The position numbers and the translations under genes were made by a program. Shown one piece after another: positions 991 through 11,149 of a DNA stretch of 64,000 nt. Below the pieces are notes generated by a model. It made no database searches, was not told where the DNA came from, and was given only the letters and a program-made list of their open reading frames with translations. Location of the stretch: assembly GCA_964407685.1 (NCBI GenBank), contig CAYOWI010000003.1, positions 1,681 to 65,680 of the forward strand, read 5' to 3'. This DNA comes from an uncultured Muribaculaceae bacterium. GTDB taxonomy: Bacteria > Bacillota_I > Bacilli_A > RF39 > UBA660. The stretch's first letter is position 1, and the number at the start of each line of letters is the position of its first letter.

Positions 991-2298
991 TTAAAAAGGC
1001 ATTTTAAAATTTCCATTTTTCATCATTTTCATCATTTTTTGCATTTGTTCAAACTGAGTAAGTAGTTTATTCACTTCTTGTACTGTTGTTCCACTACCAT
1101 TTGCTATTCTTTGCTTTCTTGATGCTTTTATTATTTCAGGATGACGTCTTTCTCTTATCGTCATAGAAGATATTATAGCTTCTAAACTACTAAACTGTTT
1201 AGGGTCAATATTAATGTTATTAAGTCCCAGTTTTCTAGCACCCGGAAGAAGTTTAATTAAGTTTTCGAGTGGTCCTAATTTCTTTATTTGCTTTAACTGA
1301 GATAAAAAATCTTCTAAATCCATTTTACCTGACTGGATTTTTCGAGCGGTAGACATTGCTTCTTTTTCATCAATAACAGACTCTGCCTTTTCTATTATAG
1401 ACATAATATCCCCGTTGCCTAATATTCTAGATACCATTCTTTGAGGATCAAAATAATCTATACCGTCTAATTTTTCAGATACACCAATAAATTTAATTGG
1501 AACGCCCGTTAAATGTTTTGTACAAAGTGCAACACCACCTTTAGTATCACCATCCATCTTTGTTAGTATTGTACCAGTAAGCGGCAAAGCTTCATTAAAA
1601 CCAGTTATAACGTTTATTGCATCTTGTCCAATCATTGCGTCAATAACCAATATTATTTCATTTGGATTAACTACTTCGTTTATGCGTCTTAATTCTTCCA
1701 TTAATACATCATCAACATGAAGTCTTCCAGCCGTATCTACTAAAACTAAGTCATACCCGTGTTCCTTAGCATAATTAACACCGTTTTCTACTATTTTAAC
1801 AGCGTTACCTTGACCTTCTTCATATACTTCTATATTAAGCTCACGCCCAATTGTTTTAAGCTGCTCTATGGCTGCCGGACGGTATACGTCTGCTGCTATA
1901 AACATTGGTTTTTTACTATTTTTCTTTCTAATTAAATTTCCTAATTTACCAATGGTAGTTGTTTTACCACTACCTTGAAGACCAACTAACATAATAATAG
2001 AAGGATTACTAGATAAATTAAGTTCTGCTTTATCATTACCCAATAAATCTAATAGTTCATCTTTTAATATTTTTAAGAAAACATCTCCAGGTTTTAATGA
2101 CTTTTTAACTTCTTCTCCTAAAGCTTTTTCTTTAACTTTATTAGTAAATTCTTTTACTACCTTATAGTTAACATCAGCTTCTAAAAGCGCGAGTCTAACT
2201 TCCCTCATCGCATCAGAAATATTTTCTTCAGTTATTACTCCGTAGCCTTTTATCTTATTTACCGCGTTTTCCAATTTTTCTGTTAAACTTTCAAACAT
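991..2298 (-). CDS. ffh: Signal recognition particle protein Ffh (SRP54)
   Basis: 435 aa. NG domain with GLQGSGKTTT and DTAGRL; Met-rich M domain (QMQKMMKMMK). Confidence 0.96.
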   Translation of the reverse strand: MFESLTEKLENAVNKIKGYGVITEENISDAMREVRLALLEADVNYKVVKEFTNKVKEKALGEEVKKSLKPGDVFLKILKDELLDLLGNDKAELNLSSNPSIIMLVGLQGSGKTTTIGKLGNLIRKKNSKKPMFIAADVYRPAAIEQLKTIGRELNIEVYEEGQGNAVKIVENGVNYAKEHGYDLVLVDTAGRLHVDDVLMEELRRINEVVNPNEIILVIDAMIGQDAINVITGFNEALPLTGTILTKMDGDTKGGVALCTKHLTGVPIKFIGVSEKLDGIDYFDPQRMVSRILGNGDIMSIIEKAESVIDEKEAMSTARKIQSGKMDLEDFLSQLKQIKKLGPLENLIKLLPGARKLGLNNINIDPKQFSSLEAIISSMTIRERRHPEIIKASRKQRIANGSGTTVQEVNKLLTQFEQMQKMMKMMKNGNFKMPF

Positions 2299-2308
2299 TT
2301 ATATCACC

Positions 2309-2605
2309 TTATTTAAATATTTTTTCTATTTCTTTTTTTATTTTTTCATCTTTTATGGTTTTTACTAGACTTTTTAATTTCATATCTTTTTCGTATAACT
2401 TTAGTTTATCTTCATAAAGCATAAGCTTACTTTCAGTACTTTTAATATGCTTATGAACCGCATTACGACTAATACCACTATTTTCTGCGATTTCTCCTAG
2501 TGATAAATTATCAAAATAGTAATCTTCAAAATATTTTTTATTATCTTCGTTTAATAGTTCTCCATAATAGTCATATAAAATAATTAAATAATTTCTTTCT
2601 TTCAT
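2309..2605 (-). CDS. ylxM: YlxM/UPF0122 putative HTH protein of the SRP operon
   Basis: 98 aa with HTH LSLGEIAENSGISRNAVHKHIK. Sits in the canonical position between ftsY and ffh. Confidence 0.85.
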   Translation of the reverse strand: MKERNYLIILYDYYGELLNEDNKKYFEDYYFDNLSLGEIAENSGISRNAVHKHIKSTESKLMLYEDKLKLYEKDMKLKSLVKTIKDEKIKKEIEKIFK

Positions 2606-2606
2606 A

Positions 2607-3590
2607 TTACATCATATCCTTAAATAAACCATATATATATTTTTCTATATCAAAGGTTTGTAAGTCTTCTTCTTTTTCACCTAAACCGATATATCTTACT
2701 GGAACTCCTACTTCATCTTTTATAGCAAGCACTATACCACCTTTTGCCGTACCATCTAACTTTGTTAAAACAATACCAGTCAAGTTGGTTATTTCTTTAA
2801 AAGCCTTAGCTTGAGTTATACCGTTTTGTCCAGTTGTTGCGTCTATTACCAAGAACGTTTCATGTGGTGCACCAGGAATAATTTTATCACCTACGTTATT
2901 TATTTTTTCAAGTTCTTTCATTAAGTTAACTTTATTTTGAAGACGGCCAGCAGTATCTATTAATACCATATCATAATTATCTTTTAACGCCTTTTCTAAA
3001 CCTTGATACACAACGCTTGCAGGATCAGTGGTAGTGTTGTCACTTACCACCTCACAACCTATTTTACCCCCCCAAGAAATAAGTTGTTCAACAGCCCCAG
3101 CTCTAAAAGTATCCGCTGCAACAAGAAGCACTTTTTTTCCTTCTTTTTTAAATCTAGATGCAAGCTTTGCAATCGTTGTTGTTTTTCCAACTCCGTTTAC
3201 TCCCACAAACAAAAGAACGGTTGGGCCTTTTTCATTATAATTTATTTTGTTTGATAAAATTTCATCATTTACGTATATTATAAATAGTTCATCAACAATT
3301 ATTTCTGTTAACATATTAGGATCTGTTATTTTTTCTTTTGATACTCTAAGTTGAAGTTTGTCCATAAAATCCATTACGGTGTTAACGCCAATATCAGCAT
3401 TAATTAATAACTCTTCTAATTCTTCAAAATAATTATCATTTATCTCATCGTATTCCTTAGAAAGATTAGCAAGTTTATTAACGAAGCCCTTTCTTGTTTT
3501 TGAAAGACCTTTTTCATACGTTGACACACTCTTATCTTCTTTTTTAAAAGCATCTTTTATTTTACTAAATAGTCCCATAACCTTTATCAT
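2607..3590 (-). CDS. ftsY: Signal recognition particle receptor FtsY
   Basis: NG domain motifs GVNGVGKTTT, DTAGRLQNK, TKLDGTAKGG. The true start is probably MGLFSK at 3578. Confidence 0.95.
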   Translation of the reverse strand: MIKVMGLFSKIKDAFKKEDKSVSTYEKGLSKTRKGFVNKLANLSKEYDEINDNYFEELEELLINADIGVNTVMDFMDKLQLRVSKEKITDPNMLTEIIVDELFIIYVNDEILSNKINYNEKGPTVLLFVGVNGVGKTTTIAKLASRFKKEGKKVLLVAADTFRAGAVEQLISWGGKIGCEVVSDNTTTDPASVVYQGLEKALKDNYDMVLIDTAGRLQNKVNLMKELEKINNVGDKIIPGAPHETFLVIDATTGQNGITQAKAFKEITNLTGIVLTKLDGTAKGGIVLAIKDEVGVPVRYIGLGEKEEDLQTFDIEKYIYGLFKDMM

Positions 3591-4548
3591 CTTCCCTTCT
3601 ATCTAATATTTCTATTCCATTTACAATATCAACTAAATATCTTTCAAACCCGCCTTTATTCGCGAAGAAATAATCTTCAATTTGTTTAATTAGCTCACCT
3701 AAATCTAAGAACTCTGCCTTACTATTAAAGTCTCTAACGTTATTATTAAATATTTTTTGTATTATATCTAGCATATCATCATCTTCTAGTTTAGGAAACT
3801 TTTTAAACGTAAAAAACAAACTCATAATATATAAAAGTATATCAGGGTCAGTATTTTTAAACTGATTATCTACGCATAATTCTGTTATTATGCTATCTGG
3901 TAATTTTTGATTATTATTTAAAAGTTCAAAAGACACATTTTCATTATCTACTTTCTCGTCAGTATAAAAGGTATCATTATTATTTATAGTACTATCAAAT
4001 AAACCGTAATATATAACATATAAAAGATTATTTTCAAAACCTTTTGTTTTTTCTAGTAGTAAAGTAAATTTTTCTAAAGCATCTTTATTTTGTAATCTAG
4101 AAATTTTATTGATAATTAAACTTGCCCTCAACATTATTCCTAGTTGCATTTTTACCGAAAAATATGTATCAAGACGTTTTCCTAAAAAAGATATTCTCTC
4201 GTAATATGGTAGTAACATCTTACTTGGACATAACTTCATGAAGTTATTTAATATATATAATGAAGTTAATTCATTTATATTGTAATTGCCACTTGCTTTA
4301 ATTACATCTTCTTTTAATTCGTCCCTAAGCATTTTAACAAGGTAATTTGAAGATTTTGCTAAATTAGAAATACTATCTTGTATTTCCATTATACTATTTA
4401 GATTCCTAATTTTACTTCCTGTATTCATTGCTTCTTCACTATAATCTAATATGGCTTTTGCTAAATAATCAGTCTTAGCAAGTTTTTCTAAAGCTTCTTT
4501 TATTAGTCTATAATTTAAAAACGGTTTCATAATATACACCTCTGTCAA
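3565..4548 (-). CDS. Hypothetical protein (327 aa, helical)
   Basis: Long ORF co-oriented with and overlapping the ftsY start; no motif recognised. Confidence 0.5.
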   Translation of the reverse strand: MTEVYIMKPFLNYRLIKEALEKLAKTDYLAKAILDYSEEAMNTGSKIRNLNSIMEIQDSISNLAKSSNYLVKMLRDELKEDVIKASGNYNINELTSLYILNNFMKLCPSKMLLPYYERISFLGKRLDTYFSVKMQLGIMLRASLIINKISRLQNKDALEKFTLLLEKTKGFENNLLYVIYYGLFDSTINNNDTFYTDEKVDNENVSFELLNNNQKLPDSIITELCVDNQFKNTDPDILLYIMSLFFTFKKFPKLEDDDMLDIIQKIFNNNVRDFNSKAEFLDLGELIKQIEDYFFANKGGFERYLVDIVNGIEILDRREDDKGYGTI

Positions 4549-4652: not shown

Positions 4653-6332
4653 ATGAAAATTTTTGATACTAATCGTGCTGAAACACTAGTAGTTGCGCTA
4701 GGTGGTTTAGGAGAAGTCGGAAAAAATATGTACGCAATAATGCACGATGATGAAATTATTATAATCGATGCCGGAGTAATGTTTCCAAAAGACGAATTAA
4801 TGGGAATAGACTACGTAATACCAGATTTTTCTTTTCTTAAGAAAAATGAAGAAAAGATAAAGGCTTTATTTATTACCCATGGCCATGAGGATCATATAGG
4901 AGCGATTGCGTTTTTACTACAAACGGTAAATGTGCCTTGTATATACGCACCAAATCAAGCTTGTGGATTAATTAAAAGAAAACTTATGGATAGAAATATA
5001 AGTTATGACAATTTAAAGGTATATGATGAAAATACAAAGGTAAAATTTAAACATTTAACGGTTGAATTCTTTGCAACTACTCACTCAATACCAGATTCAC
5101 ATGGTATTATAATAAGTACCCCAAACGGAAAAATAGTTGAAACCGGAGATTTTAAATTTGACTTAACCCCAATTGGACCCATGAGTAATATTCATAAAAT
5201 GTCAGATACTGGAAAATCAGGTGTTAAACTTTTAATGAGTGAATCAACCAATGCTTTATCTCCTGGTTTTTCAATGAGCGAATCAAAAGTAGAAGAAGAA
5301 TTACAAGATATATTTGAAAAGAAAAAAGGAAGAATAATAGTTGCTACCTTCGCATCTAATATCTACAGACTTAAACACATTGTAGAAACATGTAAAAAAA
5401 ATAATAGAAAAATTGCTTTATTTGGAAGAAGTATGGAAAACAATATTGAAATATCAATTGAAGGTGGATACATAAAAGATGATAAAATCTTTGTTTCACC
5501 AGAAATTGCTAATACTCTTGCTCCAGAAGAAATATGCTTACTTTGCACAGGTTCACAAGGAGAGCCACTAGCCGCATTATCAAGAATTGCAAATGGTACT
5601 CATAAACAAATAAAATTAAGACCAACGGATACGGTTATCTTTTCTTCTAACCCTATTCCAGGTAATAATGCTAGCGTAGCTAAAACAATAAATCAGTTAT
5701 ATTTACAAGGCGTTGAAGTCTTTGTAAACAATTCAGAAAATGAAATCCATACGTCTGGGCATGCTAACAAGGAAGAATTAAAATTAATGATAAGATTATT
5801 AAAACCAGAATATTTTATGCCTATTCATGGTGAATACAGAATGCTTAAAGCTCACCAAGATTTAGCTATAGACTGTGATATTCCAAAAGAAAAAACATTT
5901 TTACTTGAAAACGGAGACGTTTTAGCACTAAATAAAAGCGGAATAAGAAAAGTCGGCAACATAGGAGCTGATGACGTATACGTTGATGGTAATCGTATTG
6001 GAGATATTGGAAACGTTGTTATAAGGGATAGAAAAATAATGGCAAATGATGGTATATTAGTAGCAATCTGCAACATAAACATGGACACCCATAAACTATT
6101 AGGTAAAATAAATATTACTACAAGAGGTTTTATCTTAGTAAACGAAAATGAAGAACTACTAAAGCAAATAGAAGAAGTTGCAACAAACACCGTAAATAAA
6201 GAATTAACAAAGAAAAATGTCAATTATAGTGAGTTAAAAGGGCAATTAATAAGTAATTTATTAACCTTTGTTTTTGACAAAACCGGTAGAAGGCCAATAA
6301 TATTACCAGTTATATTAGATGTAAAAAAATAG
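4653..6332 (+). CDS. rnj: Ribonuclease J (metallo-beta-lactamase/beta-CASP)
   Basis: 559 aa with the HxHxDH motif (THGHEDHIG), a beta-CASP region and an RNase J C-terminal domain. SD AAAGGAG upstream. Confidence 0.93.
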   Translation: MKIFDTNRAETLVVALGGLGEVGKNMYAIMHDDEIIIIDAGVMFPKDELMGIDYVIPDFSFLKKNEEKIKALFITHGHEDHIGAIAFLLQTVNVPCIYAPNQACGLIKRKLMDRNISYDNLKVYDENTKVKFKHLTVEFFATTHSIPDSHGIIISTPNGKIVETGDFKFDLTPIGPMSNIHKMSDTGKSGVKLLMSESTNALSPGFSMSESKVEEELQDIFEKKKGRIIVATFASNIYRLKHIVETCKKNNRKIALFGRSMENNIEISIEGGYIKDDKIFVSPEIANTLAPEEICLLCTGSQGEPLAALSRIANGTHKQIKLRPTDTVIFSSNPIPGNNASVAKTINQLYLQGVEVFVNNSENEIHTSGHANKEELKLMIRLLKPEYFMPIHGEYRMLKAHQDLAIDCDIPKEKTFLLENGDVLALNKSGIRKVGNIGADDVYVDGNRIGDIGNVVIRDRKIMANDGILVAICNINMDTHKLLGKINITTRGFILVNENEELLKQIEEVATNTVNKELTKKNVNYSELKGQLISNLLTFVFDKTGRRPIILPVILDVKK

Positions 6333-6358
6333 ATGTTTTTTTACATCTATTTTTTTAT
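6327..6358 (+). terminator. Rho-independent terminator of rnj
   Basis: ATAGATGT(6329-6336)/ACATCTAT(6343-6350) stem followed by T7. The stem overlaps the stop codon. Confidence 0.6.
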
Positions 6359-6413: not shown

Positions 6414-7172
6414 TTAATTAGAATTTAATTGAACAAAATTAAGCGTAAATTTTGTTTCTACTTTAAAATTAAAACTTCCGCCAGTAGGTCCACCCCAGAT
6501 CGAAGGATAATCTGCCATAAAAAGCAAATATATACTATTACCTGGTTTTAATCTAATTACCATGTCATCTTCTGTTGAAAAATCTTTAACATCTTCTTCT
6601 GGTGCCCCGTTAAAAGGACTAATCTTTGTTCCATCTGCCTTTTCGAAACCATAAGGAAAATAAAAATCAATTATATCATAAGAATTTAGTATTGACCCAA
6701 GGTAAGCTTGATTATGCTCGGGAATAGTACTATCTAATATTTCGTCCGAATCAAAAACTCCATTATTATTACCATCGTTATAAACTTTCCAAGACTTTTG
6801 TATACCAGAATCCATATCAAAAGATGCGTCAATGGTTCCGTTATTAGTTATTTTAGCAGTAAAATACCTAGCGGCCCCAGGATACTCAAACTCAGTACTA
6901 AACGACATAGTATCTCCAGAAACCGTACAATTATCATTTTTATATCCTCCTTCTTTAACATATACTTCAGGATCCATTGATATAAAATCATCTACTGTTG
7001 CCAAAGATGAATCAACACCTGTTTGACATGTTACTCCAATATCAAATTCACCTTTAGCAGTTGCTGTTCCATTAATAGTTATATTTTGGCTAAAGTACGC
7101 ATATCCAACTGATAAAACTAGTAGTAGTGCTAAACATCCTATTAATATTTTACTTTTCTTATTATTTATCAT
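6414..7172 (-). CDS. Secreted protein with a SipW-type (TasA/camelysin-like) signal peptide
   Basis: N-terminus MINNKKSKILIGCLALLLVLSVGYAYFSQN; the G-YAYF-S motif resembles the SipW-cognate signal class. Beta-rich body. SD AGGAG lies 8 nt before ATG 7172. The track start at 7202 lies inside the predicted -10. Confidence 0.5.
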   Translation of the reverse strand: MINNKKSKILIGCLALLLVLSVGYAYFSQNITINGTATAKGEFDIGVTCQTGVDSSLATVDDFISMDPEVYVKEGGYKNDNCTVSGDTMSFSTEFEYPGAARYFTAKITNNGTIDASFDMDSGIQKSWKVYNDGNNNGVFDSDEILDSTIPEHNQAYLGSILNSYDIIDFYFPYGFEKADGTKISPFNGAPEEDVKDFSTEDDMVIRLKPGNSIYLLFMADYPSIWGGPTGGSFNFKVETKFTLNFVQLNSN

Positions 7173-7206
7173 TTTTACTTCTCCTTTTTCTATTATTACC
7201 ATGTTT

Positions 7207-7234
7207 ATAATAGCATATACCCCCCCCCGGTCAA
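7207..7234 (-). promoter_or_regulatory. SigmaA-like promoter with a G9 homopolymer in the spacer
   Basis: Minus strand reads TTGACC(7234-7229)-GGGGGGGGG TATATGC (16 nt)-TATTAT(7212-7207), about 35 nt upstream of ATG 7172. Confidence 0.4.
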
Positions 7235-7414
7235 GGTTTTTTAAGGGCTGTTTATAATTTTTTTAGACACCTTAGATAGGGGGTGTATAATAAGAGAAAG
7301 GATGTATGCATTATGATACTGAACTTAAAAAGAAACTCTGTGAAGAAATTTGTTTAAATTATGCTCCTACTGTCAAAACTGATAATATTAAATGTTAAAA
7401 AATAATTGTTAAGT

Positions 7415-8137
7415 TTATAATATGTCTTTCAAATCAGGCAATCTTTTTATTATATATGTAGGAGCATATTCTTTTGGTAACACTTCATTTTCCGCATTAT
7501 ACCAAACACTATCTATACTAGCATTCGTTCCGCCTTTTACTTCAGAACATAAAGAATCTCCAATGATTAACATCTTATCCTTTTCATAAAAGTTTAAATA
7601 TTCTTCTAATTCATCAAAAAATTCTTTTTTAGGCTTTGTAATAGTTTTTCTAGTCATGTCTGCCGAAAAAATTGAATCAATAAACTTATAACAGCCAATT
7701 TTTTCTAATTTAGTTTGAGCTGCAGATGATGGACCATTAGTCGCAATAACTATTTTATATTTTTTATTTAAATATTCTAATGTCTCATAAGCTCCTTTTA
7801 TTGGAACAACAACTTCTTTTAGACTAGATAAAAATAAATCGTTAATTTCAAAAGCTTTTTCCAAAGAAATTTTATTATCAAAATATAATTGGTACCTTAA
7901 ACTTCTAACATACTTAACAAATAATTCTTGAGATATATTATATTCATTAGGTACCACTATTTTATTATTATGAAAATCTATCCAAAATTGTTTATCTAAC
8001 TCATACCATTTTTTAAAACCTTCTAAAGTATAATCCTCATTCATATAATTAACCATTTTAGTATAAGCATATCTTACGTTTTCTAAATTATCAATTAAAG
8101 TATCATCTAAATCAAATAATAAAATCTCGTATTTCAT
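7415..8137 (-). CDS. HAD-superfamily hydrolase (YjjG-like nucleotidase/phosphatase)
   Basis: Motif I FDLDDTL; later ATNGP and GDS motifs. SD AAGGAG precedes ATG 8137; the track start at 8158 is a TTG. Confidence 0.8.
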   Translation of the reverse strand: MKYEILLFDLDDTLIDNLENVRYAYTKMVNYMNEDYTLEGFKKWYELDKQFWIDFHNNKIVVPNEYNISQELFVKYVRSLRYQLYFDNKISLEKAFEINDLFLSSLKEVVVPIKGAYETLEYLNKKYKIVIATNGPSSAAQTKLEKIGCYKFIDSIFSADMTRKTITKPKKEFFDELEEYLNFYEKDKMLIIGDSLCSEVKGGTNASIDSVWYNAENEVLPKEYAPTYIIKRLPDLKDIL

Positions 8138-8166
8138 AATCGTATGCTCCTTTTTCAATGTTTAAT

Positions 8167-8877
8167 TTATTTATTTTCTTTATATAATGCTTTTCTTTGT
8201 TCATTTTGTTTTTTATAATTATCTAAGTCCACATATAGTTTTCTATACTCTTTTAAAATATCTTCTAGCAAAATGTACATAGATACAATATACCCTTCAT
8301 TATAAGCCATCATTAGTTCATAATGTAAGGAAAGTTGAGTTCGATTTTTTGACGCATCCTCCGCTATTTTATTAAATTTAGAATACGTAGGATATTCTTT
8401 TAATGCATCATTTATTGAATCTATTTTGCTATTAGAGTAACTTAAAAATTCCTTAACTATTAAATCTCTTTGTTCTAAGTAATAAAGCTTGTCTTTTTCT
8501 AATTTTAAAATTTCATCTTCGTTATCAAAATTTTTATTAAATTCAATATCTTTGTTAACTTCATCTACTCTAGCTTCAATTATCCCAATTAAAGTTATAA
8601 AAAAAAGGTAATCTGTAACTAACTCTTCTTGGTGTAAAAACGCCGGAGTACAGCTACTACCTTTAGTAATTAAGTCTATCATACTTTGCGTATTAATATC
8701 ATTTATATCTTTTAATTTTTTCTGATTAGTTAATAATTTAAGTTTGATATTTTCTAGTTTTGAATTTTCCACGTCATTTTCTTTGATTTCTGGTTTACTT
8801 TTTTTCTTAACATATAAATTCTCCTTTAATAATTTAAATTTTGCTGTTTTTATATCATAAATTTTATAAAAATACAC
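8167..8877 (-). CDS. Hypothetical protein (236 aa)
   Basis: ORF only; no motif recognised. Confidence 0.45.
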   Translation of the reverse strand: MYFYKIYDIKTAKFKLLKENLYVKKKSKPEIKENDVENSKLENIKLKLLTNQKKLKDINDINTQSMIDLITKGSSCTPAFLHQEELVTDYLFFITLIGIIEARVDEVNKDIEFNKNFDNEDEILKLEKDKLYYLEQRDLIVKEFLSYSNSKIDSINDALKEYPTYSKFNKIAEDASKNRTQLSLHYELMMAYNEGYIVSMYILLEDILKEYRKLYVDLDNYKKQNEQRKALYKENK

Positions 8878-8947: not shown

Positions 8948-11149
8948 CTACTCTTCTGTATTTTCTTCTTTCTTTTTAATTTCTTTCTTTTCTGACTTTT
9001 CGTCTTTTATTTTATCTTTTACTAAAACTTCTTTTCTAGATAAGTTTAGTTTACCATTTTTAAATCCTGTTGCTTTAACGATGATATCATCTCCTTCAGA
9101 TACCACATCTGATGCTTTTGCAACTCTCTTATCAGATAATTGAGAAATATGAACTAATCCTTCGCATCCTTCCCAAAGTTCTACGAAACATCCTAATTCA
9201 TCAATTACCTTAACTACACGACCAGTATAAATTTTACCTACTTCAACTTCCTTTACTACGTTTCTTATCATTTCAGCAGTTCTATCAATTATTTCTTGGT
9301 CGGTATGATAAATAATTACCCTTCCATCTTCTTCTATATCTACCTTAACAGCGTTCATGTCAGTTACTGTTTCAACGTTTGAAGACTCAAGTATTATCTT
9401 AGTAATCATTTCTCCACCCTTACCAATTACGTCTTTTATTTTTAATGGATCAATAGTAAAGACAAGAGTCTTAGGAGCATACTTACTAACTTCTTTTCTT
9501 GGTTCTTTAATTTGTTTAGCAATTACTTTTAATATTTCAAGTCTTGCCTTTTTAGCTTGTGCTAAAGCTTCTTTTAAAATTTCTTTAGTTATACCTTTAA
9601 TTTTAATATCCATTTGAAGTGCACAAATACCATCTTTTGTTCCTGCAACCTTAAAGTCCATGTCTCCTAAGTGGTCTTCCATACCTTGGATATCAGTTAA
9701 AATTGTATAATCATCACCATCGGTAATAAGTCCCATTGCAATACCTGCAACTGGTGCTTTAATAGGAACACCTGCCGCCATAAGAGCCATACAACCAGCA
9801 CAAATAGAAGCTTGTGATGATGAACCATTACTTTCTAATATTTCAGATACAACACGGATTGTATATGGGAATACTTCTTCTGATGGAATTACTTGTAAAA
9901 GCGCTCTTTCTCCTAATGCACCATGGCCTACTTCACGACGTCCTGGAGCACCATATCTACCTGTTTCACCAACAGAGAATTGTGGGAAGTTATAATGTAA
10001 CATAAATCTTTTTTGATCTTCTGGTGATAATCCATCAATTATTTGATGTTCTCCGAGTGCCCCTAGTGTTACAACAGATAAACTTTGAGTTTCACCTCTC
10101 GTGAATAACGCTGAACCATGAGTTCTTGGAAGTAAATCTATGTCTGTAGAAAGTGGTCTTATTTCGGTCATCTTTCTTCCGTCAGCTCTCTTTTTTTCTT
10201 TAACTACTATCTTTCTAAATACGTCGTATTCAACTTCTGCTAAGCAAAGTTTAACCTTAGTTAGTAACTCATTAAGCTCTTCTTTTTCCATTTCTTCATT
10301 TTCATATTCAAATTTAGCTACAACGTCTTCTTTAACTTTATCAATAGCTTCATATTTTTCTAACTTATCTTTAATACGCATAGCTTTATCAAGTGGTTCT
10401 TTAGCAAGACTTTGAATTTCTTCTTTAAGTTCGTCAGTTATTTCAAGAACGTCATATTCCATCTTTTCCTGACCAACTTCTTTAATAATCTTTTCTTCAA
10501 ATTTAATTAATTCTTTTATAGCATCATGTCCAAACATTAAAGCATCTAACATATCGTCTTCTGAAGCCTCTTTAGCCCCTGCTTCTACCATGTTTATAGC
10601 ATCTTTTGTTCCTGCTACGGTTAAATCGATATCACTTTTGTCTAACTCATCTACACTAGGATTAATAACGAATTTTCCATCTACTCTTCCTACTTTAACA
10701 CCAGCGATAGGGCCATCAAAAGGCACTTTACTTATACACGTTGCTATACTAGAACCAAGCATTGCAGTAAGTTCTGGTGAATTATCAGGGTCAACTGATA
10801 ATACGGTATTTACAACCTGAACTTCATTTCTAAAGTTTTCTGGGAATAATGGACGCATTGGTCTATCAATCATTCTTGCGGCAAGTGTTGCGTTCTCTGT
10901 TGGTCTTCCTTCCCTTTTAATAAATCCACCTGGTATCTTACCTACTGAGTATAACTTTTCTTGGTATAAAACCATAAGTGGAAAAAAGTCAGATAACACG
11001 TTAGCTGTTTTACTTACACAAACGGTAGATAAAACAACTGTATCACCATATCTTACTAACACTGCCCCATGAGCTTGTTTAGCTAATTCTCCTACTTCAA
11101 CGGTTAAAGTTCTTCCTCTAAATTCTGTTTCAAATATTCTTTTTTCCAT
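8948..11149 (-). CDS. pnp: Polynucleotide phosphorylase
   Basis: 733 aa with two RNase PH domains, a KH domain (GKGGEMI) and an S1 domain ([16 protein letters not shown]). Confidence 0.97.

What the first reader, a model, noticed from the sequence alone, without database searches (positions are those of the whole stretch)
7197..7240. G9 homopolymer inside the -35/-10 spacer of the TasA-like secreted protein gene: candidate phase-variable promoter
On the minus strand the sequence reads TTGACC-GGGGGGGGG-TATATGC-TATTAT, with the -35 at 7234-7229 and the -10 at 7212-7207. This is a 16-nt spacer of which 9 nt is a G run (C9 on the plus strand, 7220-7228). It lies about 35 nt upstream of the SD and ATG (7172) of a secreted protein with a SipW/TasA-like signal peptide.

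A 9-nt G/C homopolymer is highly unexpected in DNA this AT-rich. Slipped-strand changes in tract length would alter spacer length and thus promoter strength. That is the classical phase-variation mechanism, known from Haemophilus hif, Neisseria opc and Mycoplasma vlp promoters. Surface or matrix proteins are typical targets of such switching.
Basis: partly seen in the sequence, partly recalled or inferred. Interest (0 to 1): 0.6.

Follow-up and report, generated by a model that had tools for sequence, protein, structure and literature searches.

The report
Poly-G switch promoter of a surface-protein family
A run of nine G's sits inside the promoter of one member of a roughly 20-copy family of secreted proteins in an uncultured rodent-gut bacterium; the same G-run promoter recurs across the family and in related gut bacteria with differing run lengths, so it is very probably a slippage-driven on/off or volume switch for surface variation, though switching was not observed directly at this locus.

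Summary
On the minus strand the sequence reads TTGACC (7234-7229), G9 (7228-7220), TATATGC, TATTAT (7212-7207), giving a 16-nt spacer with a TRTG/TGn extended -10. It lies 35 nt upstream of the ATG at 7172.

Its depth is about 20 times that of the flanks in four metagenomes that hold the window.

Across 75 related loci plus the window (599 kb), 38 of 39 G/C runs of 7 or more sit exactly between a TTGAC -35 and a TGn -10 of such genes.

Run length differs between near-identical paralogs (G7-G13) and between samples at orthologous loci. Interrupted alleles never vary in length.

Ordinary TGn promoters in these genomes use 17-18 nt. Pure G-tract promoters are mostly 16 nt. Interrupted alleles of the window's module type are 17-18 nt in 11 of 12 cases.

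The family's core operon in relatives encodes a SipW-type signal peptidase. TasA homology itself is unproven.

Verdict: this is a phase-variable promoter of the porA/fetA/vlp kind, in a newly recognised multigene family. Still missing are per-molecule tract counts at this locus, a mapped transcription start, and expression as a function of tract length.

The parts
7237..7242 (-). A6 run just upstream of the -35 (UP-element-like); the upstream edge of the repeated cassette is at about 7245
   Evidence: An A-rich block before TTGAC is invariant in the 10-sequence promoter alignment. Depth falls from about 300 to about 75 between 7241 and 7248.
7229..7234 (-). -35 hexamer TTGACC
   Evidence: TTGAC directly precedes the G run in all 38 promoter runs found in relatives and the window.
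7220..7228 (-). G9 homopolymer (C9 on the + strand), the proposed slippage tract inside the spacer
   Evidence: Contigs with identical flanks carry C8, C9 and C10 in runs X1-X4, and C9 to C11 in X5. Homologous promoters carry G7-G13.
7213..7219 (-). Fixed part of the spacer, TATATGC, containing the TRTG / TGn extended -10 motif (TG at 7215-7214)
   Evidence: ATG-n-TATTAT is invariant across species.
7207..7212 (-). -10 hexamer TATTAT
7199..7206 (-). Conserved AAACATG(G) block; the transcription start is predicted at about 7199-7201 (inferred, not mapped)
   Evidence: The block is conserved in the alignment. The start position follows from the usual 6-8 nt distance from the -10 (established knowledge). 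The 'RNA?' runs were uninformative.
7181..7184 (-). Shine-Dalgarno GGAG, 8 nt before the ATG
   Evidence: An AGGAG-type motif sits at the same place in homologues.
6414..7172 (-). Coding sequence of 252 aa. It has an N-terminal signal/anchor helix, then an invariant segment FSQNITINGTATAKGEF, then a variable beta-sandwich body. It belongs to an unnamed family.
   Evidence: AlphaFold2 pLDDT 85.9; helix 4-29; residues 30-43 low confidence; then beta strands.
7044..7245 (-). Multicopy cassette comprising promoter, 5' UTR and codons 1-43, shared by about 20 copy-equivalents in the same metagenomes
   Evidence: Word depth is 443-717 here against about 25 in the flanks in X1, with similar ratios in X2-X4 and about 9x in X5. 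Many different continuations appear on both sides. There is no second copy within the window.
6323..6349 (-). Hairpin TAGATGT-A6-ACATCTA followed by T7: a likely terminator of the gene, shared with the convergent RNase J gene
   Evidence: Read directly. The consensus scan did not list it (AT-rich stem).

Best explanation
The G9 run is the variable part of the spacer of a sigma-A-type promoter (TTGACC, 16 nt, TGn-TATTAT). That promoter drives one member of a large family of SipW-type secreted surface or matrix proteins in an uncultured, AT-rich rodent-gut member of the Bacilli.

Proposed mechanism: slipped-strand mispairing during replication adds or removes G's. This changes the distance and the rotational phasing between the -35 and -10 elements, so each family member independently drifts between weak or off and strong states.

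In the assembled state the spacer is 16 nt, one short of the 17-18 nt used by ordinary promoters of this lineage. This copy is therefore predicted to be low or off, and one inserted G away from the canonical spacing.

About 20 genes share the same promoter and N-terminal cassette but have different bodies. The population would therefore display changing combinations of variants, which is surface or antigenic variation.

Shown: the promoter anatomy; its conservation; the multicopy cassette; length polymorphism between paralogs and between samples; length stability and 17-18 nt spacing of interrupted alleles of this module type; and a SipW-type peptidase next to core family genes in relatives.

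Inferred: that slippage occurs at a high rate within a population; that transcription starts at this promoter; that expression depends on run length; and which length is ON.
For: Anatomy. Rarity: 0.006 runs of 9 or more expected.

Position: in 598,678 nt of related loci plus the window, 38 of 39 G/C runs of 7 or more lie directly after TTGAC and before a TGn -10. All are on the sense strand of a downstream secreted or membrane protein gene. The exception is coding sequence in ftsY.

Module conservation: AAAAA-TTGACn-Gn-TATATGn-TATTAT-AAACATG is about 90% conserved between species whose proteins are only 40-50% identical.

Lengths between paralogs: G7-G13, giving spacers of 13-20 nt with a mode of 16.

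Spacer statistics: ordinary TGn promoters in the same genomes have 17 nt (9 cases) or 18 nt (10 cases) and never 16 nt. Pure-run promoters have 17-18 nt in only 8 of 35 cases (Fisher p = 2.8e-6). Interrupted or non-repeat alleles of the same module have 17-18 nt in 11 of 12 cases (p = 4e-5).

Orthologous loci in different metagenome assemblies differ in pure-run length: G6/7/7/9/9; G10x3 and G9; G10 and G9x3; G9x3 and G10; G10 and G9. Interrupted alleles (5 and 2 sequences) never differ in length.

A single 3,279-nt contig of rat-gut run X33 spans both unique flanks of L018 promoter 1. It has G10 where the MAG has G11.

In the window's own metagenomes, contigs with identical flanks carry C8, C9 and C10. 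A related strain in another study carries C9 to C11.

The same promoter module also drives other surface-protein genes, including a lipoprotein and membrane-anchored proteins.

The mechanism is established for fetA and porA (PMC5320596) and for vlp, maa2 and vmm (PMC2268961).
Against: No per-molecule counts exist for this locus. Only short assembled contigs of the runs are available, and they cannot link the tract to the unique flanks. The C8/C9/C10 mixture may therefore be fixed differences between paralogs. The C10 fraction in X1 (1.3%) is within homopolymer sequencing error.

No transcription start or expression data exist.

The promoter has a strong TRTG extended -10, which can lessen dependence on the -35 and hence on spacing.

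No terminator is evident between the upstream HAD-type gene and the promoter, so read-through could contribute.

In a sister lineage the module TTGACAYCC-Gn places TTGACA 19-20 nt from the -10. Its interrupted alleles are all 19 nt, so the simple '17 = ON' rule does not transfer.

A homopolymer next to a promoter can be functionally inert, as shown for the T-tract of the M. agalactiae vpma promoter (PMC2268961).
Confidence: 0.75

Rival explanations
1. The G run is a fixed promoter feature, for example a spacer with particular DNA stiffness or the binding site of a regulator. Expression would be controlled conventionally, and length differences between copies would be old, slowly accumulated differences rather than a switch.
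For: The run's position and strand are strictly conserved. G9 and G10 are the commonest lengths in both module types even though their spacers differ by 3 nt. One locus class has G10 in all four samples.
Against: Length varies between promoter copies whose flanks are identical and between samples at orthologous loci. A protein-binding site would not tolerate G7 to G13. Interrupted alleles exist and keep the spacer at the ordinary length.
Confidence: 0.1
2. The run does slip, but without consequence. The promoter works through its extended -10 alone, or the gene is transcribed by read-through, and the run persists only because it is copied along with a promoter cassette spread by duplication and gene conversion.
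For: A TRTG extended -10 is present in every copy. There is no obvious terminator upstream. Sister-lineage alleles have 19-20 nt between TTGACA and the -10. The cassette is clearly spread by duplication or conversion.
Against: In a 27.5% G+C genome an unselected G9-G13 run should decay, yet pure runs are kept in dozens of copies in several species. TTGAC is conserved immediately before every run. Interrupted alleles of the window's module type settle at 17-18 nt, the ordinary spacing (11 of 12), which shows that spacing to TTGAC matters.
Confidence: 0.12
3. The tract or its length is an assembly or sequencing artefact.
For: Homopolymers are error-prone. Many contigs break at these cassettes.
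Against: The same tract appears in contigs of four runs of one study, and a related strain in a run of another study (X5) carries the cassette with tracts of C9 to C11. Homologous tracts occur in dozens of independent assemblies. Differences of 2-3 G between samples exceed consensus error.
Confidence: 0.02

Closest known systems
Neisseria porA, fetA (frpB) and opc promoters: a homopolymeric G or C tract between -35 and -10
   Same: A G/C homopolymer of about 9-14 nt forms part of the -35/-10 spacer of a surface-protein gene. Tract length differs between strains and sets the level of transcription (PMC5320596; the opc details are from my own knowledge).
   Different: Those are single-copy genes of Gram-negative pathogens. 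Here the same promoter module heads about 20 paralogs plus other gene families in uncultured Gram-positive-lineage gut commensals. Dependence of expression on tract length is not yet measured.
Mycoplasma hyorhinis vlp (also M. arthritidis maa2 and M. mycoides vmm)
   Same: A multigene family of surface proteins shares a highly conserved promoter, 5' UTR and signal-peptide block followed by divergent bodies. Each gene is switched independently by insertions or deletions in a homopolymer in the -35/-10 spacer (PMC2268961). Several related MAGs here are labelled Mollicutes or Mycoplasma by their depositors.
   Different: vlp uses a poly-A tract and encodes lipoproteins with tandem-repeat C-terminal regions. 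Here the tract is poly-G in 27% G+C DNA, the proteins have no conserved lipobox and no repeats, and genes are scattered rather than in one cluster. The window has one copy.
Bacillus subtilis TasA / TapA / SipW (biofilm fibre) and the related archaeal bundling-pilus or AbpX proteins
   Same: The N-terminus follows the SipW-dependent pattern (hydrophobic helix, G-x-x-A, then F-S/N-D/E..., then G-x-F/L-D-I/L). In at least 20 related loci, core family genes sit in an operon with an archaeal/ER-type signal peptidase I (TIGR02228, 89 bits). After the signal comes an invariant, poorly modelled N-terminal segment ahead of a beta-sandwich. That is what a donor strand would look like (donor-strand assembly of TasA: PMC9674648, PMC9245690).
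   Different: There is no significant sequence or fold match. TIGR04088 scores 15.2 against a cut-off of 19. Peptidase_M73 matches 2 of 60 members weakly. AbpX scores E = 0.019. hhalign to a TasA sequence I wrote from memory gives E = 0.043. Foldseek has no hit with E <= 0.001, and TasA is not in the top 50. TasA is not known to be phase-variable.
Campylobacter jejuni poly-G contingency loci
   Same: G8-G11 tracts in an AT-rich gut bacterium, with many loci per genome affecting surface structures (my own knowledge; review hit PMC10027602).
   Different: Campylobacter tracts are mostly inside coding sequence and act by frameshift. Here every non-coding long G run found lies in a promoter spacer.

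Membership tests
Repeat-mediated transcriptional phase variation (promoter-spacer homopolymer; porA / fetA / vlp type) | Homopolymeric tract long enough to slip (about 7 or more) located between the -35 and -10 hexamers | tested here: met
   G9 lies between TTGACC and TGn-TATTAT. The same position holds in 38 of 39 long runs in relatives.
Repeat-mediated transcriptional phase variation (promoter-spacer homopolymer; porA / fetA / vlp type) | Tract length is polymorphic between strains, or between copies whose flanks are conserved | tested here: met
   Identical-flank contigs carry C8, C9 and C10, and C11 in another study. Orthologous loci in sister lineages differ by 1-3 G while interrupted alleles never do.
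Repeat-mediated transcriptional phase variation (promoter-spacer homopolymer; porA / fetA / vlp type) | Reversible, high-frequency length change at one locus within a clonal population | not testable with these tools
   Only assembled short contigs of the relevant runs are held, and they cannot tie the tract to the unique flanks.
Repeat-mediated transcriptional phase variation (promoter-spacer homopolymer; porA / fetA / vlp type) | Transcription starts downstream of this -10 and its level depends on tract length | not testable with these tools
   The 'RNA?' runs X7 and X17 also cover the promoter and upstream DNA, so they say nothing about the start. The only indirect support is spacer statistics.
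SipW-dependent secreted proteins / TasA-camelysin family (TIGR04088 signal; Pfam PF12389 Peptidase_M73) | N-terminal signal matches the TIGR04088 model above its cut-off | tested here: not met
   The score is 15.2 bits (E = 0.018) against a cut-off of 19. The match covers residues 9-39 on profile positions 1-31 of 34. Only 2 of 60 family members reach E <= 0.01. Resemblance only.
SipW-dependent secreted proteins / TasA-camelysin family (TIGR04088 signal; Pfam PF12389 Peptidase_M73) | A SipW-type (archaeal/ER-type) signal peptidase I is encoded with the substrate genes | tested here: met
   Met in relatives, not in the window. L069 6494-7690 matches TIGR02228 at 89.3 bits (cut-off 51.85). It lies downstream of four family or family-like genes, and homologues sit next to family genes in 22 loci. 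tblastn finds none in the 64-kb window.
SipW-dependent secreted proteins / TasA-camelysin family (TIGR04088 signal; Pfam PF12389 Peptidase_M73) | Mature domain homologous to TasA/camelysin by sequence or fold | tested here: not met
   Pfam PF12389 matches 2 of 60 members at E = 0.034 or weaker. The PDB profile search gives AbpX at E = 0.019 as best hit. hhalign against TasA gives E = 0.043, probability 1.2%. Foldseek against the PDB has no hit with E <= 0.001.
Mycoplasma Vlp-type variable lipoprotein families | Lipoprotein signal with a lipobox cysteine, and a tandem-repeat C-terminal region | tested here: not met
   No conserved lipobox. Cys13 lies at the start of the helix and is absent from many members. 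No internal repeats appear in the alignment or the model. It works like vlp but is not a member.

The most novel reading that the evidence does not exclude
Uncultured, small-genome gut Bacilli of mice, rats and humans carry a previously undescribed contingency system built on a portable poly-G promoter module. The module heads dozens of paralogous subunits that share an invariant N-terminal (donor-strand-like) segment and are processed by a SipW-type peptidase. By slippage, the cells would continually reshuffle which variant subunits build a TasA-like surface fibre. This would be antigenic variation of a donor-strand-exchange filament in commensals, possibly driven by IgA or phage pressure. 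The same module is reused for lipoproteins and other membrane proteins.
Probability: 0.3. Interest if true: 0.8.

Novelty: new member of a known kind. Interest (0 to 1): 0.6.

Why it matters
Phase variation by simple repeats is textbook for a few pathogens such as Neisseria, Haemophilus, Campylobacter and Mycoplasma. It is scarcely documented for the uncultured, reduced-genome Bacilli that are common in mammalian guts. My literature searches found no description of this family or of SipW-linked phase variation.

If the switch is real, these commensals devote around 20 genes per genome to stochastic surface variation. That would bear on how they persist under IgA and phage attack.

It would also explain why their assemblies break at these loci. 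Metagenome pipelines that collapse or 'polish' homopolymers may therefore erase biologically meaningful states.

The roughly 20 paralogs with different tract lengths form a natural reporter series that a single metatranscriptome could read out.

Tried and rejected
(1) Locus-specific tract counts. Runs X1-X4 and X5 are held only as short assembled contigs that end at branch points (7247 and within 7040-7245). Tract variants therefore cannot be assigned to this locus. A search for PacBio runs returned only host-genome runs with the same species label, which I did not use.

(2) C8:C9:C10 depth ratios across four samples. The C8 share is 9-24% and the C10 share is 0-8%. That is too noisy, and confounded by paralogs and homopolymer error, to count as evidence of switching.

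(3) Transcription-start evidence from the 'RNA?' runs X7 and X17. Their contigs also cover the -35 and upstream DNA, so this is DNA carry-over or read-through and is uninformative.

(4) Exact-protein look-ups of the window protein and of its likely paralogs P0004 and P0078 found no contigs on record.

(5) A second cassette copy inside the window: none found.

(6) TasA homology by Pfam, NCBIfam, PDB profile search, hhalign and Foldseek: all below significance.

(7) The rule that a 17-nt spacer is universally ON was rejected as a general statement, because the sister module's interrupted alleles are 19 nt from TTGACA.

(8) I considered a G-quadruplex (only one G run), a lipoprotein signal (Cys13 is not conserved), and a terminator between the upstream gene and the promoter (the ACACC/GGTGT hairpin at 7266-7287 lacks a T run). 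All were rejected from the sequence.

Full report
THE OBSERVATION. The minus strand reads AAAACC-TTGACC (7234-7229), G9 (7228-7220), TATATGC (7219-7213), TATTAT (7212-7207), AAACATGG. It continues to GGAG (7184-7181) and ATG (7172). The spacer is 16 nt and includes a TRTG/TGn extended -10.

The ORF finder extends the frame to an ATG at 7202. Homologues all start at MINNKK/MNKK, so 7172 is the start.

The window has 27.5% G+C and only one G/C run of 8 or more. An independent-base model expects 0.006 runs of 9 or more. The other run of 7 or more (3067-3073) lies inside ftsY and encodes W-G-G-K.

Promoter-likeness by consensus alone is weak in this AT-rich DNA: 18 sites were found against 8.6 expected. 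The case therefore rests on the comparative evidence below.

SURROUNDINGS. The gene (6414-7172, minus strand, 252 aa) lies among housekeeping genes:
- ffh, ylxM-like and ftsY (991-3590);
- RNase J (4653-6332, plus strand, convergent);
- a YjjG/HAD-type nucleotidase (7415-8158, minus strand, upstream);
- PNPase (8948-11149).

A hairpin with a T7 run at 6323-6349 serves as a terminator. I saw no terminator between the HAD-type gene and the promoter, so read-through cannot be excluded.

Positions 7305-7397 on the plus strand hold a 30-codon remnant of a gene. A longer copy of that gene exists elsewhere in the same metagenomes.

I laid the contigs of four runs that hold the window on positions 6900-7600. 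Word depth is about 25 (X1) in the unique flanks and 443-717 between 7044 and 7235. Ratios are similar in X2-X4, and about 9x in a related strain from another study (X5).

Many different sequences continue from both edges of the cassette. The block runs from about 7245 to 7044. It comprises the A-rich stretch, -35, G run, -10, 5' UTR and codons 1-43, and is present in roughly 20 copy-equivalents.

The window itself has only this one copy. Four database proteins (P0004, P0011, P0078, P0086) have the identical first 40 residues and different bodies.

THE FAMILY AND ITS PROMOTER IN RELATIVES. The protein has 195 unnamed homologues, all from genomes or metagenomes.

A scan of species-representative genomes returned 75 loci from uncultured gut MAGs. 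Their depositors label them Bacilli, Mollicutes, Mycoplasma sp. or Clostridium sp. Some MAGs contributed around ten loci each, and many loci lie at contig ends.

Upstream of the family genes in at least six MAG species, the promoter is AAAAA-TTGAC[C/G/T]-G(7-13)-TATATGn-TATTAT-AAACATG, or a variant with TATTCT. The module is about 90% conserved between species whose proteins are only 40-50% identical.

In 598,678 nt there are 39 G/C runs of 7 or more. Of these, 38 lie in exactly this position, always as G on the sense strand.

A more distant clade of 170-aa proteins lies in a conserved operon and has ordinary TTGACT-17/18-TATTAT promoters without a G run.

The same poly-G module also heads other genes in relatives: a lipoprotein, two membrane-anchored proteins and a 271-aa protein.

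HOW THE RUN BEHAVES.

Between paralogs of one MAG, flanks are nearly identical while run length differs:
- CASEKZ: G9 and G10.
- CANEGO: G9 to G11.
- CAZTRE: G8 to G12.
Spacers range from 13 to 20 nt, with 16 nt in 20 cases and 17 nt in 9.

Ordinary promoter-like sites in the same loci peak sharply at 17 nt (30 cases) and 18 nt (11 cases). With a TGn motif they are 17 nt (9) or 18 nt (10), and never 16 nt.

Pure-run promoters fall at 17-18 nt in only 8 of 35 cases (Fisher p = 2.8e-6).

Alleles of the window's module type in which the run is interrupted or replaced are 17-18 nt in 11 of 12 cases (p = 4e-5). Examples are GGGGGGGAGG, GGGGTGGGGG, GAGGGGGGGG, GGGGGAGGGG, and CATTGTGGGG in five CAMFOH promoters.

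The functional spacing to TTGAC is thus 17-18 nt. Stabilised alleles sit there, and slippery alleles are mostly one step away.

A metagenome scan for the module gave 75 more loci. Grouping by unique flanks shows that pure runs differ between samples at the same locus. The locus classes below are named by the 12 nt upstream:
- TCTATTTATGAC: G6, G7, G7, G9, G9.
- AAATTTATAGAC: G10 three times and G9 once.
- TGTAATTATACC: G10 once and G9 three times.
- AAATTAAAAATC: G9 three times and G10 once, plus a further pair of G10 against G9.
- One class has G10 in all four samples.
Interrupted alleles (5 and 2 sequences) never differ in length.

In rodent runs, one 3,279-nt contig of X33 spans both unique flanks of L018 promoter 1. 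It has G10 where the MAG has G11.

In the window's own metagenomes, contigs with identical flanks (7198-7245) occur as C8, C9 and C10. In X5 they occur as C9 to C11. These cannot be assigned to this locus. The rare C10 class in X1 (1.3%) is within sequencing error. I therefore count this as showing only that the cassette exists in several lengths.

THE PRODUCT. There is no Pfam family. The SipW-cognate signal model TIGR04088 scores 15.2 bits, below its cut-off of 19. Only 2 of 60 members reach E <= 0.01.

Genome context does support a SipW-type pathway. In L069 (Clostridium sp. CAG:594), two core family genes and two family-like genes (signal ...VGYAFFNDSLTINGVAS) are followed by a 398-aa protein. 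Its C-terminal domain matches archaeal/ER-type signal peptidase I (TIGR02228, 89.3 bits against a cut-off of 51.85). It scores 52.6 on the SipW model, below that model's cut-off. Homologues of this peptidase lie beside family genes in 22 loci, including MAGs that carry the poly-G paralogs.

The AlphaFold2 model (60-sequence alignment, pLDDT 85.9) shows a helix at residues 4-29 and a low-confidence stretch at 30-43. That stretch is the family's invariant FSxxITINGTATAKGxF segment. A beta-sandwich follows.

Searches for TasA homology were all below significance:
- Foldseek against the PDB gave no match with E <= 0.001.
- A profile search of the PDB gave AbpX, a TasA-like archaeal matrix protein, at E = 0.019.
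- hhalign to a TasA sequence written from my memory aligned only the PG...TNxG(T/S)(I/L) strand, at E = 0.043.

'TasA-like' is therefore justified for the signal and secretion context. It is only a hypothesis for the fold and for fibre formation.

MECHANISM. The most likely mechanism is slipped-strand mispairing in the G run, which changes the -35/-10 spacing and so the promoter strength of each family member independently.

With G9 (16 nt) this copy is predicted weak or off. G10 (17 nt) would give the canonical spacing.

With about 20 such genes, plus other surface genes on the same module, the population would express shifting subsets. This is the logic of vlp in Mycoplasma hyorhinis and of porA, fetA and opc in Neisseria (PMC2268961; PMC5320596).

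Shown: anatomy, conservation, copy number, length polymorphism, the spacing statistics and the peptidase context.

Inferred: the switching rate, the transcription start, the dependence of expression on length, and the identity of the ON length.

CAVEATS AND AN UNEXPLAINED POINT. The extended -10 might make the -35 partly dispensable.

In a sister lineage from the metagenome scan, many of whose contigs are labelled human gut, the module is TTGACA[C/T]CC-G(6-10). This places TTGACA 19-20 nt from the -10 at the usual G9/G10, and its interrupted alleles are all 19 nt. One 329-kb contig carries both module types. Possible readings:
- the -35 is read differently there;
- those promoters are independent of the -35;
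- those genes are silent.
I could not decide between them.

A homopolymer next to a promoter can also be inert, as reported for the vpma T-tract (PMC2268961).

NOVELTY. The mechanism is classical. What is new is the system:
- an unnamed, large, SipW-linked family;
- in uncultured gut Bacilli;
- with a conserved, reusable poly-G promoter module.
Literature searches found no description of it.

I file it as a new member of a known kind. It works like porA/fetA/vlp. It is not a Vlp lipoprotein and is not a demonstrable TasA homologue.

Noticed in passing
window 7305-7397 (+), with a promoter-like TAGACA-16-TATAAT at 7264-7291 (+): A 30-codon ORF (MHYDTELKKKLCEEICLNYAPTVKTDNIKC) with its own SD. 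The same metagenomes hold a second, longer copy: 7 mismatches over 7305-7381, its own start 'MTMHYD...', continuing '...VKTAGEYNVPLKT'. The window copy looks like a truncated gene remnant beside the family gene, perhaps a scar of its insertion.
   Followed up: partly
window 3067-3073: The only other G/C run of 7 or more in the window (C7 on the + strand) lies inside ftsY (2607-3590, -) and encodes W-G-G-K. It is the single exception among the 39 long runs surveyed.
   Followed up: yes
L038 814-824 and 3489-3499; L049 4651-4658; L046 247-255; L132 86-121: The same poly-G promoter design heads unrelated surface-protein genes in related MAGs. These are a 180-aa membrane protein, a 271-aa protein, a lipoprotein with lipobox FAGC, and a 296-aa membrane-anchored protein (MGVLKNDVGRPSKK...). 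This suggests a genome-wide set of promoter-switched genes.
   Followed up: partly
L069 4007-7690 (and 21 other loci, e.g. L043, L045, L062): A conserved core operon holds two 170-aa family genes, two family-like genes, and a 398-aa protein. That protein fuses a polytopic membrane domain to an archaeal/ER-type signal peptidase I. The operon is driven by ordinary promoters without a G run.
   Followed up: partly
L076-L150, e.g. L091, L113, L122, L125 (all on contig ERZ857785.8): A sister module TTGACA[C/T]CC-G(6-10) places TTGACA 19-20 nt from the -10, and its interrupted alleles are all 19 nt. One contig carries this module together with the window-type TTGACC-G9 (16 nt). This is unexplained by the 17-nt rule.
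   Followed up: partly
window 7068-7083 (codons 30-36); alignment A2: The invariant N-terminal segment contains N-x-T sequons (NIT and NGT, with N34-G35-T36 nearly invariant). Some paralogs from other genomes end in C-x(2-3)-C motifs (P0066 CYSGC, P0071 CFYQC, P0075 CIGGC, P0080 CYRGC). The significance is unknown.
   Followed up: no
L013 4001-4090: In MAG CANEGO, one family gene has the window's N-terminus (MINNKKSKILIGCLALLLVLSVGYALFS) interrupted by a stop codon and has no G-run promoter upstream. It is a probable pseudogene or silent copy.
   Followed up: no
window 3565-4548 (-) and 8167-8877 (-): Two ORFs of 327 and 236 aa among the housekeeping genes have no Pfam or NCBIfam match.
   Followed up: no
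L017-type loci; table (L007, L008, L016, L020, L022, L027, L033, L038): Many MAG contigs end within about 50-900 nt upstream of a family gene, that is at the repeated promoter cassette. The cassette is a systematic assembly breakpoint in these genomes.
   Followed up: partly
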